This document shows positions 6,001 through 9,000 of a stretch of 64,000 nucleotides of DNA, one piece after another (position 1 is the stretch's first letter; every line of letters starts with the position of its first letter). The position numbers were made by a program. Location: the NCBI GenBank assembly GCA_040387495.1, contig JAZKDQ010000003.1, positions 1-64,000 on the forward strand, in the 5' to 3' direction. This DNA is from Pseudomonadota bacterium. GTDB taxonomy: Bacteria > Pseudomonadota > Alphaproteobacteria > Paracaedibacterales > CAIOTO01.

Positions 6001-9000
6001 TGCTGTTAAGTGCACGAATGCGATCTATCAAACATAACAAGTATCTATTATATATTGGTTCCTACGATCTTCTTCTGATTTATCGGTTTTCGGTATTGTC
6101 AATTCAACCATTTCTTTTGTAATGATTACGGTTGTTCCTCTTGCATCATCTGCATTTTCAAGCACAGGGTCGAGCAGTTCATCAACAATTGATCGGAGTG
6201 CTCTGGCCCCGGTTTTTGATTCAGAGGCTTTTTTCGCAATAGCATCAAAGGAATCATCTGAAAATTCAACATTAATTTCATACGCTGGTGATGAAAGCAA
6301 CGACTTAAATTGTTGAATGATTGAGTTAGCTGCTTCCGTTAAAATGCGGCGTAATCCAGTTGCATCGACGGGTTCAAATAAAACACGTTTATGAAGGCGC
6401 CCGAGCAGCTCAGTTTTCATACCATACTTTTCTAATTCAGAAAGTGGTATGGTGAAACGTTTTTCAATAATGATTTGTTCAGTGCTTTTTTTTGATGGTA
6501 ATGGCTTTACAACAAGTTTAGTATTTGTGGGCTTTAATCCATAGCGTTCTAATTCAGTATCTTTAAATGAAAGAGTAGTTCCAGCCGAAGTAATATCCAT
6601 AGAATTATTTTTTTTTGTTTCTGCTCGTATTACCTCATCTTTTTCTTTATTATCCTCTTCTCTAGTGGCCTCTTTTTCAGTCTTTTTTTCTATGTTTGCT
6701 TCAATAACATTCTTCTTAATATTTTTAATTATGACATCATATGATGCTGGCTTAATGCCTGTAAAGGCGCCGGCTGTGATAAATAAGATGTTTGTTGTAT
6801 CGACAAAATAAGTTCGTTTATTAGGCCCCTCACCTTCATCAATTTTAATTACATCCCCTTGTATCAAACGTAATAATTCACCTTGTACATCCGCGCCTGC
6901 AATGTCACGTTCACCCCCACCTGATTTTGCTGCTATTTTGTCAATTTCATCAATAAAAATAATGGTTTTATTTTGGGTGTCTTCTATGTTGAAGTTATTA
7001 GCCATGAGTGCTTTTTTTATAAGTCCTGAAGCACTTTGTCCAACATAACCAGTACGTGTTAATGAGCTGGCATTTCCCATAATCAATTTGACATTGACAC
7101 CATTGGCATTTAGAAAGTGCTGTAAATGTTCCAAAGATGCTGTTTTTCCGCACCCACTTTGTCCAATAAGAAGCATATTACTTTTATCGAAGTGGACCCA
7201 TCCTTTTTCTGCTGCTAATGCGGGGTTAGTTTGTATAAGATTATTTAATTCGAGACCTGCATAATGTTTGTAAATATGCGTTGCGAGTGCAGACATTGCC
7301 CTGTCTTGTCCGATAATGTATTTGTTTAGATGATTTGAGATGGATCGAGAGGACGGAACTGTAGGGGCCGTATTTTCTATTGTTTTTTCTAAGTTCCGAG
7401 TAAGTTCATCATGAAAGGGGATATAGATTACTTCACCTTTTTTTGAGGGTGAATTAATATTTTGTTGATTACTTTGTGGTTCATCACGCTGTGTCGTTAA
7501 TGGAGGCTGATCTCTCAAATTGCGTTTTCTTTTATGAGGAGGTAGATAAACATCAGATTTTGATGGTCCTTTGCTTAATGGATCGAGAGTTTTATCTCTT
7601 TCTTTATTTTTTTCTATTTTTTCTTTTCTTGCTTTCTGTCCAAGCTCTTTGATTGTAAGGAATTCTAAGAATGGATCTTTCCAAAGAGGAGGCATTGCAT
7701 CTGAATAATGTTCAGATTTATCTTCCCAGACTTTGTAATTATTTAATATTTCATCTGAATTTCCTGTATTGTAGCTATTGAAAAAATTGTTAACTTTAGT
7801 GTTAACTTTGACTGCTGCGGACTCAAGTGACTCATAGTTCACCAGTTCTAAGCTATTAAACAGTCTGTCGTAATTTTCTTTTTCGGCTTTTCTAAAGTTT
7901 CTTCCAGTTCTTGCAGACTTGTTGCCGCCATCTTTTCTCCCGCCAAAGATGTCATCGCTGGCTAAGGCTGAGTCACTTGAAAATCCTATAATTGTTAAGC
8001 TGGAAGTTAATAAAAGCACGCGGGCTTTTGACATTATTTTTATACAAGTCATAACACTTTTCTCCTTGGTTGAATAAGAAAGTATGCTTTGCAGTTGTCA
8101 TGACATGTACAAATGAAATTATTCCATTTTATACATAATCTTTTTTGTCATACATTTCTTGCACATTGTCGCATTTTGTATTTTTCAATGAGTACGCTTT
8201 TGAACCATGATTCACGATTACCCCGTACTTTGACTAATTGAATACCTAAAGTGCTGAGATCATTTATCTGGCAAATTACGTGATAAGTCTTCATTGAGAA
8301 AAAACCCCTGTGTTGAGAAAATGTTGACATTGATATGCTGCTCCATACTCACTTATAATCTTTAGCTTCACACAAAATACATGATAAGTATTTATGTTGC
8401 GCGAAAGAGGTGTTTAATGACCTCTTATTTATTATTTTAAGTAAAAATGGTTAATTTATGATTAATTGTGGCTAGAGATTTACAAAAAGTGATGGGGTTA
8501 AGTTTTATCAGCACACTGTTTTTGCACACACAAAGAGATCTGTTCTTGTAAACATTATGGTGACAGAAAGATTCCTAATAAATCTTCTGGCACAATGGAT
8601 TCGTTGACGATAATGTAATACATGAAAAATGGAGTAATAATATGCAAGAGCACAAACCTGGTCTTTGGTATGGAACAACTATCGTTTCTATACGTAGGAA
8701 TGGTAAAGTTGTCATCGCTGGTGATGGCCAAGTTACATTAGGGAGTCAAATAATTAAAGCACAGGCGAAAAAGGTTCGTCGTCTTGCAGGCGGTCAGGTG
8801 ATTGCTGGGTTTGCAGGCGCAACGGCCGATGCTTTCGCGTTGTTTGAACGATTAGAAGGTAAGTTGGAGCAGTATCCATCGCAGCTTGCACGTGCGTGTG
8901 TTGAGATGGCGAAGGATTGGCGCACGGATCGTTATTTGAGGCGCCTTGAGGCCATGATGTTGGTGGCTGATAAAAACGTTTCATTGGTGTTAACAGGAAC

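What a model noticed while it worked through the whole genome (the two positions that open the first line are those of the whole stretch)
6028..8052. ClpX-derived AAA+ unfoldase with a Sec signal peptide and no ClpP-docking parts
g0278 (674 aa) is a second ClpX-like ATPase. It keeps all motor motifs but lacks the ClpX zinc finger, RKH loop and IGF loop, and it begins with a Sec-type signal peptide. It belongs to a small clade restricted to this order, and every full-length member examined has such an N-terminus. I predict that it is exported and works without ClpP, possibly in a host cell.
Evidence so far: - Pfam finds AAA_2/AAA only. The canonical ClpX with its zinc finger, and ClpP, are present on C4. 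- The best PDB match is ClpX, E 1.5e-46. - Motif table of 13 members: Walker A/B, GYVG, arginine finger and sensor-2 are kept. RKH and IGF are absent. - 11 of 13 ORFs from relatives have signal-peptide-like starts. One is truncated and one is the canonical ClpX. The same start is seen in P0127-P0133 and P0200. - Charge pattern: positive before the stretch in 14 of 14, zero or negative after it in 13 of 14. - The clade has SH-aLRT 100 against 15 ClpX and 1 HslU. - The top 27 of 27,323 library hits have no zinc finger, and 21 of 27 have hydrophobic N-termini. - 1 of 401 class genomes (G000 itself [...]
(Added by a program. Inside this text positions count along the whole contig: contig position 1 is position 1 of the stretch shown here. 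"Call 12" and the like, gene names such as g00115 and contig names such as C1 are that model's own, and its searches are not shown. The text may have been shortened before it was handed on; [...] marks where a part breaks off. The agent that wrote the report below was given it as the finding of a first reader that could run no searches.)

Follow-up and report, generated by a model that had tools for sequence, protein, structure and literature searches.

The report
Secreted unfoldase with proteasome-docking tail
An endosymbiont of protists encodes a ClpX-like protein-unfolding motor that carries an export signal and ends in the three-residue tail that other unfolding motors use to plug into the proteasome, so it may hijack the host's protein-degradation machine.

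Summary
Window 6028-8052 (minus strand) encodes a 674-aa ClpX-type AAA+ ATPase. All motor motifs are intact. It has no zinc finger, no RKH loop and no IGF loop, and its N-terminus looks like a Sec signal.

Two things change the picture. First, the protein does not belong to a small clade. It belongs to a family found in at least 38 of the 62 genomes of this order (Holosporales/Paracaedibacteraceae-like endosymbionts), often in 2-5 copies. The family is monophyletic and under purifying selection.

Of 73 distinct members, 61 end in hydrophobic-Tyr/Phe/Trp-any residue, mostly Met-Tyr-X (Cys-Tyr-Val here). The same ending occurs in 3% of this genome's ORFs and in none of 82 zinc-finger ClpX. This is the HbYX motif by which PAN, Rpt and Cdc48 ATPases dock on the 20S alpha-ring.

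These bacteria have only HslV. Two genomes with no detectable HslV still carry HbYX members.

My best reading (about 0.4): the motor is exported by Sec, released to the host, and docks on the host 20S proteasome. Export, the outer-membrane route and docking are all inferred. The rivals are a periplasmic motor fuelled by host ATP, a secreted remodeller that needs no protease, and an alternative HslV partner.

The parts
6028..8052 (-). Whole ORF: 674 codons plus a stop at 6028-6030. Protein id P0001.
   Evidence: SD AAGGAG lies 9 nt upstream of the ATG at 8052.
7960..8052 (-). Residues 1-31, a Sec-type signal-peptide-like start. The n-region carries K5, K9 and R11. The h-region is VLLLTSSLTIIGF. 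The c-region ends A-L-A|S-D-D. There is no twin arginine.
   Evidence: Sequence. My own rule and hydropathy: KD10 2.12, KD19 1.45. It resembles the starts of this genome's TolC, porin and OMP. Cleavage was not tested.
7588..7881 (-). Residues 58-155, a helical N-domain of unknown fold that includes a Y-x-x-L-F helix (61-65). It replaces the ClpX zinc finger.
   Evidence: AF2 helices 58-69, 76-94, 99-112 and 125-155, with pLDDT about 60-80. No Pfam match. No usable Atlas hit. The motif occurs in 20 of 73 members against 7.7% background.
7399..7587 (-). Residues 156-218, a disordered linker with the basic cluster H-K-R-K-R-N (173-178; nt 7519-7536), which resembles a classical nuclear localisation signal.
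   Evidence: pLDDT below 50. A cluster of at least 4 basic residues in 5 occurs in 16 of 59 members against 5.1 expected from shuffles. The NLS reading is recalled resemblance and was not tested.
6748..7380 (-). Residues 225-435, the large AAA+ subdomain. It holds Walker A 297-304, pore-1 GYVG 335-338 and Walker B 364-371. The RKH site reads GEGPNKRT (407-414).
   Evidence: pLDDT above 90. Foldseek's top hits are ClpX.
6472..6747 (-). Residues 436-527, a K/E/T-rich disordered insert at the place of the ClpX IGF loop. It holds no IGF.
   Evidence: Gap between the two PDB-aligned stretches. pLDDT below 50. The IGF region lacks [ILVM]GF in 40 of 40 family rows; it is 17-34 residues in 34 of them and 38-123 in P0001's subclade (113 in P0001). 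All 4 ClpX have IGF in 45 residues.
6088..6471 (-). Residues 528-655, the small AAA+ subdomain with the arginine finger (R552) and sensor-2 (R617).
   Evidence: Pfam ClpB_D2-small matches 578-631.
6031..6087 (-). Residues 656-674, the C-terminal tail. It ends C-Y-V (672-674; nt 6031-6039), an HbYX-like motif.
   Evidence: Sequence. Family-wide conservation: 61 of 73. Position counts. Background 38 of 1230.
8642..10506 (+). hslV (8642-9196) and hslU (9193-10506), transcribed divergently from the ORF. This is context and the candidate partner in one rival reading. I do not count it as part of the system.
   Evidence: hslV lies nearby only in the genus g1 loci, 7 of 37 loci compared.

Best explanation
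P0001 belongs to a family found across this order of endosymbionts. I call it SP-ClpX-HbYX.

Shown:
- The family has a ClpX-type AAA+ hexamer motor with working ATPase and pore-loop motifs.
- It has lost every ClpX-specific interface: the zinc finger, the RKH loop and the IGF loop.
- It has gained a Sec-type N-terminal signal and a C-terminal Hb-Tyr-X tail.

Inferred mechanism:
1. SecA/SecYEG exports the unfolded chain across the inner membrane, and the signal is cleaved near A31.
2. The protein leaves the bacterium by a route not yet identified. A conserved secretin with PilB/GspE-like and PilC/GspF-like parts is the candidate.
3. In the host cytosol or nucleus it assembles into a hexamer and uses host ATP.
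4. Its C-terminal tails insert into the pockets between the alpha-subunits of the host 20S proteasome, as the tails of PAN, Rpt and Cdc48 do.
5. It then feeds host proteins, chosen by its variable N-domain, into the host proteasome without ubiquitin.
For: Motor intact, ClpP/ClpX interfaces absent
- The model's AAA+ module has pLDDT above 90 and its nearest folds are ClpX.

Signal-like start
- My rule passes 39 of 40 family rows; the one failure is cut at its 5' end. It passes 0 of 12 ClpX and 0 of 7 HslU.
- All 13 further ORFs have such a start by eye.
- The charge runs positive before and negative after the hydrophobic stretch.
- The start resembles those of this genome's TolC, porin and OMP.
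- SecA lies in the window.

C-terminal motif
- 61 of 73 distinct members end in [hydrophobic][Y/F/W]X, and 49 of them in [LIVMFC]-Y-X. The motif holds the majority in 23 of 31 clusters at 50% identity.
- Among 58 distinct tails, position -3 is M in 35 and L in 8. Position -2 is Y in 39 and F in 8. The last residue varies (S16, L9, V7, M7, I7, T5), and upstream positions vary too.
- Background is 38 of 1230 ORFs (3.1%), or 10 of 1230 by the strict form. ClpX scores 0 of 12 and HslU 0 of 7.
- Among the top 150 hits of a 1.84-billion-protein library, 0 of 70 zinc-finger ClpX carry the motif.
- An invariant penultimate aromatic with a free last residue is what defines HbYX. HbYX tails insert into alpha-subunit pockets of the 20S (passages read).

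No bacterial partner for such a tail
- HslV is the only proteasome homologue in G000. No genome of the order shows alpha/beta pairs.
- Genus g19 has HslV in 0 of 3 genomes (95-98% complete). Two of them, G053 and G054, still carry members ending PMYM and SMFM.
- hslVU is a neighbour only in genus g1.

Lifestyle
- The genome has 3-4 ATP/ADP translocases, a T6SS and ankyrin proteins. Named relatives are Odyssella and Holosporales.

Selection
- dN/dS is 0.05-0.31 over the AAA+ module and tail, and 0.23-0.70 over the N-region, in 9 pairs. A tenth pair was saturated.
- Copy number reaches 5 per genome.
- This is the pattern expected of a diversifying effector family with a conserved engine.

Precedent in the order
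Against: - Nothing experimental exists. No RNA data were found.
- HbYX is a three-residue motif. Binding to any 20S was neither shown nor modelled, because the complex job never ran.
- 12 of 73 members lack the motif. One whole subclade ends in basic tails (L016, L064, P0131).
- The outer-membrane route is unknown. No T2SS pseudopilin and no VirB4 were found. The secretin is also present in lineages without the family, 59 of 62 genomes, so it does not co-vary with it. The order's review favours the T6SS, which does not take Sec substrates.
- 17 of 39 N-termini reach a 19-residue hydropathy of 1.6 or more, so some could be uncleaved anchors.
- My signal rule passes 31% of all ORFs.
- The NLS-like cluster occurs in only 16 of 59 members.
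- HslU also docks by a C-terminal tail, and hslVU lies next door in this genome.
- The host organism is unknown.
Confidence: 0.4

Rival explanations
1. Secreted remodeller without a protease. The protein is exported and reaches the host, but acts alone as an unfoldase or disassembly machine, as yeast Mcx1 or ClpX alone does (both recalled). The C-terminal Hb-Y-X serves another purpose, for example binding a host adaptor, as the p97 tail binds PUB/PUL domains (recalled), or regulating the protein itself.
For: The motor is intact and the ClpP interface is missing. The start is signal-like. 12 of 73 members do without the tail motif yet keep their motor motifs, for example L016, L064 and L017. 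No docking was shown.
Against: The motif is conserved exactly at the last three residues, with a free final residue, across 23 of 31 deep clusters. That fits insertion of a terminal carboxylate into a pocket. No adaptor is known.
Confidence: 0.2
2. Periplasmic motor fuelled by host ATP. The protein is exported by Sec and stays in the periplasm, free or anchored by an uncleaved signal. This energy parasite takes up host ATP, so ATP is available there. The motor would unfold or extract envelope proteins, or proteins in transit.
For: The start is signal-like, and no outer-membrane route was identified. The genome has 3-4 TLC ATP/ADP translocases, which implies ATP outside the inner membrane (plus inference). 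17 of 39 N-termini are hydrophobic enough to act as anchors.
Against: No periplasmic ring protease or other partner for an HbYX tail is known or was found; HslV is the only proteasome homologue. The NLS-like clusters and the fast-evolving, multi-copy N-domains fit a host-facing role better. No periplasmic AAA+ is known in bacteria (recalled).
Confidence: 0.2
3. Alternative cap for the bacterium's own HslV. The hydrophobic N-terminus is an inner-membrane tether, or is not used, and the motor stays in the cytoplasm. Its C-terminal tail docks between HslV subunits as the HslU tail does. The result would be a second, membrane-associated HslV-dependent protease.
For: The gene is divergent from hslVU here and in 6 other genus g1 loci. 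HslU docks by its C-terminal tail (recalled). The small subdomain also matches HslU, at 124 bits with best stretch 547-668.
Against: The charge distribution places the C-terminal part outside. HslU tails end F-I-L in 7 of 7 rows, not Hb-Y-X, and 0 of 7 HslU pass the motif. hslVU is not a neighbour in the other 30 of 37 loci. G053 and G054 carry HbYX members but have no detectable HslV, and their genus has HslV in 0 of 3 genomes.
Confidence: 0.1
4. Decaying or neutral paralogue. The long branches reflect relaxed selection, and the terminal features are accidents of drift.
For: End branches are long in the tree. GC is lower than in the neighbouring genes, 0.36 against 0.42-0.45. One tandem sub-group (L030_445, L045_472, L053_480) has lost Walker B, the pore loop, the arginine finger and sensor-2.
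Against: dN/dS is 0.05-0.31 on the motor in 9 pairs. The motor motifs are invariant or nearly so across 30 aligned members. The N- and C-terminal features are conserved across 31 clusters.
Confidence: 0.03

Closest known systems
ClpX (bacterial ATP-dependent Clp protease ATP-binding subunit)
   Same: It gives the best sequence and fold match for the AAA+ module (E 1.5e-46; Foldseek). Walker A/B, GYVG pore-1, arginine finger and sensor-2 are shared. On the tree the family is sister to ClpX. An origin from the order's own ClpX is not rejected (p-AU 0.153).
   Different: No zinc-binding N-domain, no RKH loop and no IGF loop, so no ClpP docking. It scores below both NCBIfam ClpX cut-offs. It has a signal-like start and an HbYX-like end, which 0 of 82 zinc-finger ClpX checked have.
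HslU (ATPase of the HslUV protease)
   Same: It belongs to the same AAA+ clade. It lacks an IGF loop. It docks on its peptidase through the C-terminal tail (recalled). The genes are neighbours here.
   Different: The family has no I-domain between Walker A and B. HslU tails end F-I-L, not Hb-Y-X. HslU has no signal-like start (0 of 7).
HbYX-bearing proteasomal ATPases and activators: PAN, Rpt2/3/5, Cdc48/VAT; Mpa/Bpa and PA200 (names recalled)
   Same: They are hexameric unfoldases whose extreme C-terminus reads hydrophobic-Tyr-any. That tail inserts into 20S alpha-ring pockets and opens the gate (passages read).
   Different: They belong to the classical AAA clade with coiled-coil/OB or double-psi-barrel N-domains, and they are cytosolic proteins of the organism that owns the proteasome. 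Here the motor is ClpX-type, bacterial and signal-bearing, and the bacterium has no alpha-ring.
AAA+ motors that carry signal peptides: Plasmodium HSP101 of the PTEX translocon, and torsins of the ER lumen (both recalled, no call)
   Same: They are Clp/Hsp100-related AAA+ ATPases that are made with a signal peptide and work outside the cytosol that made them.
   Different: They are eukaryotic. They have no HbYX tail and no link to a proteasome.
Holospora obtusa PRP1 (63-kDa periplasmic protein)
   Same: It comes from the same order. It has a putative signal peptide, is stored in the periplasm and is then secreted into the host macronucleus (PMC9866348, passages read). It is a precedent for the route.
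   Different: It is an unrelated DNA-binding protein, not an ATPase.

Membership tests
ClpX (NCBIfam NF003745 / TIGR00382) | Scores above the curated equivalog cut-off | tested here: not met
   237.6 bits against 359, and 217.5 against 370.75
ClpX | N-terminal C4 zinc-binding domain (two CxxC) | tested here: not met
   P0001 and every family ORF in the table have 0 CxxC in the first 120 residues. All 12 ClpX rows of the order have 2.
ClpX | IGF loop for ClpP docking | tested here: not met
   40 of 40 family rows have no [ILVM]GF in the aligned loop region. All 4 ClpX have it.
ClpX | RKH loop | tested here: not met
   P0001 reads GEGPNKRT where ClpX reads GGRKHPQQ. No family row in the alignment has RKH.
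ClpX | HCLR-clade AAA+ module with Walker A/B, GYVG pore-1, arginine finger and sensor-2 | tested here: met
   Fold.
HslU (TIGR00390) | Scores above the cut-off; I-domain inserted between Walker A and B; tail ending F-I-L | tested here: not met
   124.3 bits against 362.45. No insertion at the I-domain site. The tail is C-Y-V.
HbYX-type 20S activators | The extreme C-terminus reads hydrophobic - Tyr - any residue | tested here: met
   P0001 ends C-Y-V. 61 of 73 family members carry the motif, 49 in strict form. The definition comes from passages.
HbYX-type 20S activators | Binds the 20S alpha-ring pockets and opens the gate | not tested
   The complex-prediction job (two archaeal alpha subunits plus the tail region) was never accepted into the queue. 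This needs a biochemical test.
HbYX-type 20S activators | Classical-clade AAA module with a coiled-coil/OB or Cdc48-type N-domain | tested here: not met
   The module is ClpX-type. The N-domain is helical with no Pfam or Atlas match.
Sec (SPase I) signal peptides | Positive n-region, hydrophobic h-region of about 7-15 residues, small residues at -3 and -1 | tested here: met
   K5, K9, R11; VLLLTSSLTIIGF; A-L-A|S. This was called by my own rule and by eye; no trained predictor was on hand.
Sec (SPase I) signal peptides | Actual translocation and cleavage | not testable with these tools
   Needs reporter fusions or N-terminal sequencing.

The most novel reading that the evidence does not exclude
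Holosporales endosymbionts secrete their own proteasome caps. These are ClpX-derived hexameric unfoldases that plug into the host's 20S core through an HbYX tail acquired by convergence. They would redirect the host proteasome, without ubiquitin, to host proteins chosen by fast-evolving N-domains, in some paralogues inside the nucleus. This would be the first bacterial effector that works as a surrogate regulatory particle of the eukaryotic proteasome, and the first Sec-exported bacterial AAA+ unfoldase.
Probability: 0.35. Interest if true: 0.92.

Novelty: new variant of a known kind. Interest (0 to 1): 0.8.

Why it matters
Bacterial effectors are known to exploit host ubiquitin ligases and deubiquitinases. 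None is known to supply its own unfolding motor to the host proteasome. A ClpX-type engine that swapped its ClpP-docking loops for an HbYX tail would be a clear case of convergent rewiring of the interface between an AAA+ motor and its peptidase.

It would also give a tool for ubiquitin-independent, targeted degradation in eukaryotic cells. The family is defined by simple sequence features, is absent from the review of the order that I searched, and is annotated only as 'AAA family ATPase'. It can be tested directly with peptides and purified 20S.

Even if docking fails, a conserved Sec-signal-bearing AAA+ ATPase poses a question. Where does an exported ATPase find ATP? It would point either to the host or to an ATP-containing periplasm in energy parasites.

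Tried and rejected
Steps that did not run or gave nothing
Each time the answer was 'queue full'. It never ran, so there is no result of any kind.
- The look-up of sequencing runs listed no RNA holder. Only DNA metagenome runs hold the stretch.
- The search for related loci in genome contigs with P0001 returned 44 loci, all ordinary ClpX of unrelated phyla picked up by chance patterns. They were useless for synteny or names.
- The protein-atlas search on residues 30-225 gave no usable hit by features, and structural TM scores of 0.31 or less.

Rules and motifs that proved weak
- My first signal rule passed 12 of 12 canonical ClpX, because of a hydrophobic stretch inside the zinc finger. I replaced it. 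The new rule still passes 31% of ORFs.
- The NLS idea: a strong basic cluster occurs in only 16 of 59 members, against 5.1 expected. It is a lead for some paralogues, P0001 among them, and not a family trait.
- The Y-x-x-L-F helix occurs in only 20 of 73 members. It is specific to sub-families.

Searches for a partner or a route
- No conserved neighbour was found. Among 37 loci, only ABC-ATPase-like ORFs (10 loci) and hslV (7 loci, all genus g1) recur. No operon partner emerged.
- The secretin is present in 59 of 62 genomes, including lineages without the family, so it does not co-vary with the family.

Readings considered and dropped
- Lipoprotein: no lipobox, and the Cys is not conserved.
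- Tat substrate: no twin arginine.
- OMP beta-signal or PDZ ligand at the C-terminus: these need a conserved hydrophobic or aromatic LAST residue. Here the last residue varies and the penultimate one is conserved.
- T6SS cargo: it has a Sec signal.

Literature
- Full-text searches found no report of such a protein: 'HbYX, effector, secreted, bacterial', 'ClpX, Holosporales', 'Odyssella, Paracaedibacter, effector, proteasome', 'HbYX, endosymbiont' and 'ClpX-like, signal peptide, secreted, AAA+'.
- The 2025 Holosporales review has 0 occurrences of 'clpx', 'aaa' or 'signal peptide'.
- Subscription journals and supplements were not searched.
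Full report
1. THE OBJECT

Window 6028-8052 holds a single ATG-initiated ORF of 674 codons on the minus strand. An AAGGAG Shine-Dalgarno sequence lies 9 nt upstream. Pfam finds AAA_2, AAA and the ClpB_D2-small domain.

NCBIfam ranks ClpX first at 237.6 bits, far under the 359-bit equivalog cut-off. 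HslU comes second at 124 bits. The best solved relative is ClpX 6vfs at E 1.5e-46. It aligns in two blocks, 232-435 and 528-650, so 92 residues sit where ClpX has its IGF loop.

The genome (1.66 Mb, 20 contigs, 99.9% complete) also has a normal clpP-clpX pair on contig C4. That ClpX has the zinc finger, RKH and IGF. The genome's hslVU lies next to our ORF, transcribed divergently.

2. ANATOMY

Aligned with its relatives, the genome's own ClpX and its own HslU, P0001 keeps these motifs:
- Walker A (297-304)
- pore-1 loop GYVG (335-338)
- Walker B (364-371)
- the arginine finger (R552)
- sensor-2 (R617)

RKH is replaced by GPNK. There is no I-domain, no CxxC and no [ILVM]GF anywhere in the loop region.

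An AlphaFold2 model built from a 30-member alignment gives pLDDT above 90 for both AAA+ subdomains. Residues 58-155 form helices of moderate confidence. The segments 20-53, 155-218, 463-498 and 505-520 are disordered, and the C-terminal tail is a helix. Foldseek's best hits are all ClpX.

The N-terminus has K5, K9 and R11, then the uncharged VLLLTSSLTIIGF, then A-L-A|S-D-D. It has no twin arginine and no lipobox. It looks like the N-termini of this genome's TolC, porin and an OMP.

3. THE FAMILY IS LARGE

Searching all 62 genomes held for this order, first with P0001 and then with a 30-member profile, shows extra ClpX-like ORFs of about 400-790 aa beside the canonical ClpX.
- I fetched and read them in 38 genomes.
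- Table rows add G017, G023 and G012; the G012 copy has an in-frame TGA.
- G008 and G022 hold broken or cut copies.
- None was seen in families f4, f5, f6, f7 and f10 (14 genomes), nor in G032, G035, G044, G045 and G052.
- Copy number reaches 5 matches in a genome. G013 has three copies in tandem.

Named members come from Candidatus Odyssella thessalonicensis, 'Holosporales bacterium' and 'Paracaedibacteraceae' MAGs, and are annotated 'AAA family ATPase'. So the order is the Holosporales in the NCBI sense, obligate symbionts of protists.

On a 69-row tree (quick IQ-TREE, 387 columns), the 38 family rows form one clade with SH-aLRT 96. The clade is sister to all ClpX (95), with HslU outside. 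A tree that unites the family with the order's own ClpX is not rejected (p-AU 0.153). A lineage-specific duplication followed by fast divergence therefore remains possible.

A profile search of 1.84 billion representative proteins returned 50,511 hits. I classified the top 150:
- 70 are zinc-finger ClpX.
- 16 are tandem proteins with two or three AAA modules.
- 64 are single-module proteins without a zinc finger.
- About 31 of those 64 are family members.

Outside the order, a 401-genome sample of the class gave no P0001-like match at E<=1e-35. This threshold would miss distant sub-families, and only 4 of the sampled genomes belong to the order.

4. WHAT IS CONSERVED AT THE TWO ENDS

N-terminus. 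My rule asks for net positive charge, then a 10-residue hydropathy of at least 1.7 within the first 20 residues, then small residues at -3 and -1.
- It passes 39 of 40 family rows. The one failure is cut at its 5' end.
- It passes 0 of 12 ClpX and 0 of 7 HslU.
- It also passes 381 of 1230 ORFs of the genome, so it is permissive.
- The 13 ORFs fetched later all have such starts by eye.
- The 19-residue hydropathy reaches 1.6 in 17 of 39 rows (1.45 in P0001), so uncleaved anchors cannot be excluded for some.
- In either case the charge pattern, positive before and acidic after, places the motor outside the inner membrane.

C-terminus.
- I collected 85 sequences. I dropped 6 as cut or broken: L007, L014, L136, L137, L138 and P0003. 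A member of P0003's own 90% cluster, P0266, ends T-L-Y-S. That left 73 distinct sequences.
- 61 of the 73 end in [hydrophobic][Y/F/W]X, and 49 in [LIVMFC]-Y-X. The motif holds the majority in 23 of 31 clusters at 50% identity.
- Position counts in 58 distinct tails: -3 is M35, L8, Y4, F4; -2 is Y39, F8, W2; -1 is S16, L9, V7, M7, I7, T5. The positions further upstream vary.
- Background: 38 of 1230 ORFs (3.1%), or 10 of 1230 by the strict form. ClpX 0 of 12 and HslU 0 of 7. Zinc-finger ClpX representatives 0 of 70, tandem proteins 0 of 16.
- Members are kin, so these are not independent trials. Even so, retention across clusters below 50% identity, within an otherwise variable tail, shows selection on exactly these residues.

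The 12 exceptions are:
- a sub-clade with basic tails (L016, L064, P0131);
- two degenerate paralogues ending G-Y-V-S and G-F-V-S;
- L026, which is probably frameshifted (its sisters end G-F-Y-S and G-F-Y-N);
- L017, L045_529, L133, L135, P0151 and P0162.

5. WHAT THE TAIL MEANS

'Hydrophobic-Tyr-any residue at the extreme C-terminus' is the HbYX motif. In Rpt2/3/5 it inserts into alpha-subunit pockets of the 20S and controls the gate (passage read in bioRxiv 10.1101/2025.05.27.656411). It is conserved in eukaryotic Cdc48 and archaeal VAT, where it is thought to attach the ATPase directly to the 20S (passages read in PMC5070193). PAN, Mpa/Bpa and PA200 are further examples that I recall.

A free last residue with a conserved penultimate aromatic argues against a PDZ ligand or an OMP beta-signal. 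Those need a conserved last residue.

These bacteria have no alpha-ring. HslV is the only Pfam Proteasome match in G000, and no genome of the order shows an alpha/beta pair.

HslV itself is an unlikely target for four reasons:
- HslU tails end F-I-L in 7 of 7 rows.
- hslV is a neighbour only in genus g1, in 7 of 37 loci.
- Genus g19 has no detectable HslV in 0 of 3 genomes that are 95-98% complete.
- Even so, G053 and G054 of that genus carry members ending P-M-Y-M and S-M-F-M.

The nearest alpha-ring is the host's.

6. IS THE FAMILY ALIVE?

Nei-Gojobori estimates were made on 10 close pairs, none of which includes P0001. One pair was saturated. The other nine give dN/dS of 0.05-0.31 for the AAA+ module plus tail, and 0.23-0.70 for the N-region. 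The engine is under strong constraint and the N-region evolves fast.

Together with the multiple copies, this is the pattern of a diversifying, host-facing family. One tandem sub-group (L030_445, L045_472, L053_480) has lost Walker B, the pore loop, the arginine finger and sensor-2. The P0001 gene is AT-richer than its housekeeping neighbours, GC about 0.36 against 0.42-0.45.

7. CAN IT GET OUT, AND WHERE IS THE ATP?

SecA lies in the window. The rest of the secretion inventory of G000 is:
- one secretin, an orphan next to an 891-aa TPR/ARM protein and an ankyrin protein
- one PilB/GspE-like ATPase
- one PilC/GspF-like protein
- TolC
- a T6SS
- no VirB4
- no T2SS pseudopilin match

The secretin is nearly universal in the order, 59 of 62 genomes, so its distribution says nothing either way.

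An intact ATPase needs ATP. G000 has 3-4 ATP/ADP translocases, the mark of an energy parasite. Host ATP therefore reaches at least the periplasm (inference). That keeps a periplasmic role possible.

A precedent for the longer route exists in the order. [quoted passage not shown]

P0001 and 15 other members carry a strong basic cluster upstream of the motor, H-K-R-K-R-N in P0001. That is 16 of 59 against 5.1 expected from shuffles. It resembles a classical nuclear localisation signal, which is recalled resemblance and was not tested.

8. VERDICT

Shown:
- a new, order-wide, selected family of ClpX-type motors
- without the ClpX and ClpP interfaces
- with a signal-like N-terminus
- with an HbYX-like C-terminus

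Inferred, in order of decreasing confidence:
- export across the inner membrane, about 0.75-0.8
- release to the host, about 0.55
- docking on the host 20S, about 0.35-0.4

I could not run the one structural test available, because complex prediction never accepted the job. I found no RNA data.

Five full-text searches and a word search of the 2025 review of the order found no description of such a protein. Subscription literature and supplements were not covered.

Noticed in passing
window 10992-12716 (+), 12957-13967 (+), 208-993 (+), 3017-3454 (-): Four neighbouring ORFs of unknown family begin with signal-peptide-like N-termini. Two of them have long coiled-coil C-terminal halves. The first has the same 'A-S-D-D' junction as P0001. 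Several lie in AT-rich stretches (GC 0.33-0.34). They are possible further exported or effector proteins.
   Followed up: partly
L030:8307-9614 (-), L045:5578-6957 (+), L053:161-1528 (-) (genus g1 relatives G001, G004, G002): This is a sub-family of degenerate paralogues. In G001 and G004 it lies in tandem with the P0001-type gene; in all three loci it lies close to hslVU. Walker B reads D-D-[LI]-D. The pore loop, arginine finger and sensor-2 are lost. The signal-like start is kept, and the tails read G-F-Y-S, G-Y-V-S and G-F-V-S. They may be pseudo-ATPase partners or gate binders. G000 has no such copy.
   Followed up: partly
proteins P0122-P0124, P0127, P0136, P0144, P0145, P0148, P0152, P0156: These proteins hold two or three ClpX-like AAA+ modules in tandem (585-1238 aa). 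They have no zinc finger, no signal-like start and no HbYX. P0122's cluster is named Candidatus Caenarcaniphilales (Melainabacteria). They are an unrelated, undescribed-looking architecture.
   Followed up: partly
G000 contig C1, locus L068 5550-11741 (-): An orphan secretin (557 aa, Secretin plus Secretin_N_2) lies directly downstream of an 891-aa TPR/ARM-like protein and near an ankyrin-repeat protein. No other T2SS or pilus genes are beside it. A secretin of about 550 aa is present in 59 of 62 genomes of the order.
   Followed up: partly
genomes G052, G053, G054 (genus g19): No HslV (Pfam Proteasome) match was found in any of these three genomes, which are 95-98% complete. 56 of the 62 genomes of the order have one.
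   Followed up: no
window 28864-30252 (+), 37080-38273 (+): A FliI/EscN-type T3SS ATPase (ATP-synt_ab plus T3SS_ATPase_C) and an SRP54-type GTPase that looks FlhF-like. These point to a flagellar or T3SS-type export apparatus, or its remnants, in an obligate endosymbiont.
   Followed up: no
window 45605-47263 (-): A 552-aa protein with passenger-associated-transport repeats (PATR), typical of autotransporter passengers.
   Followed up: no
G000 contigs C8 53033-56164 and C14 94182-99439: Four matches to ATP/ADP translocase (TLC). One carries an in-frame TAA and one is a 72-aa fragment, so there are two or three intact copies plus remnants.
   Followed up: no
window 1997-2959 (+): A 320-aa methyltransferase that matches the Pfam family of the mitochondrial small-ribosomal-subunit protein Rsm22 at E 2.3e-56.
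   Followed up: no
L126 (G013 contig C40, 19500-27500): Three family paralogues of 538-557 aa lie in tandem on one strand. Each has a signal-like start, and they end M-Y-I, M-Y-I and M-Y-M. This is a local expansion.
   Followed up: partly
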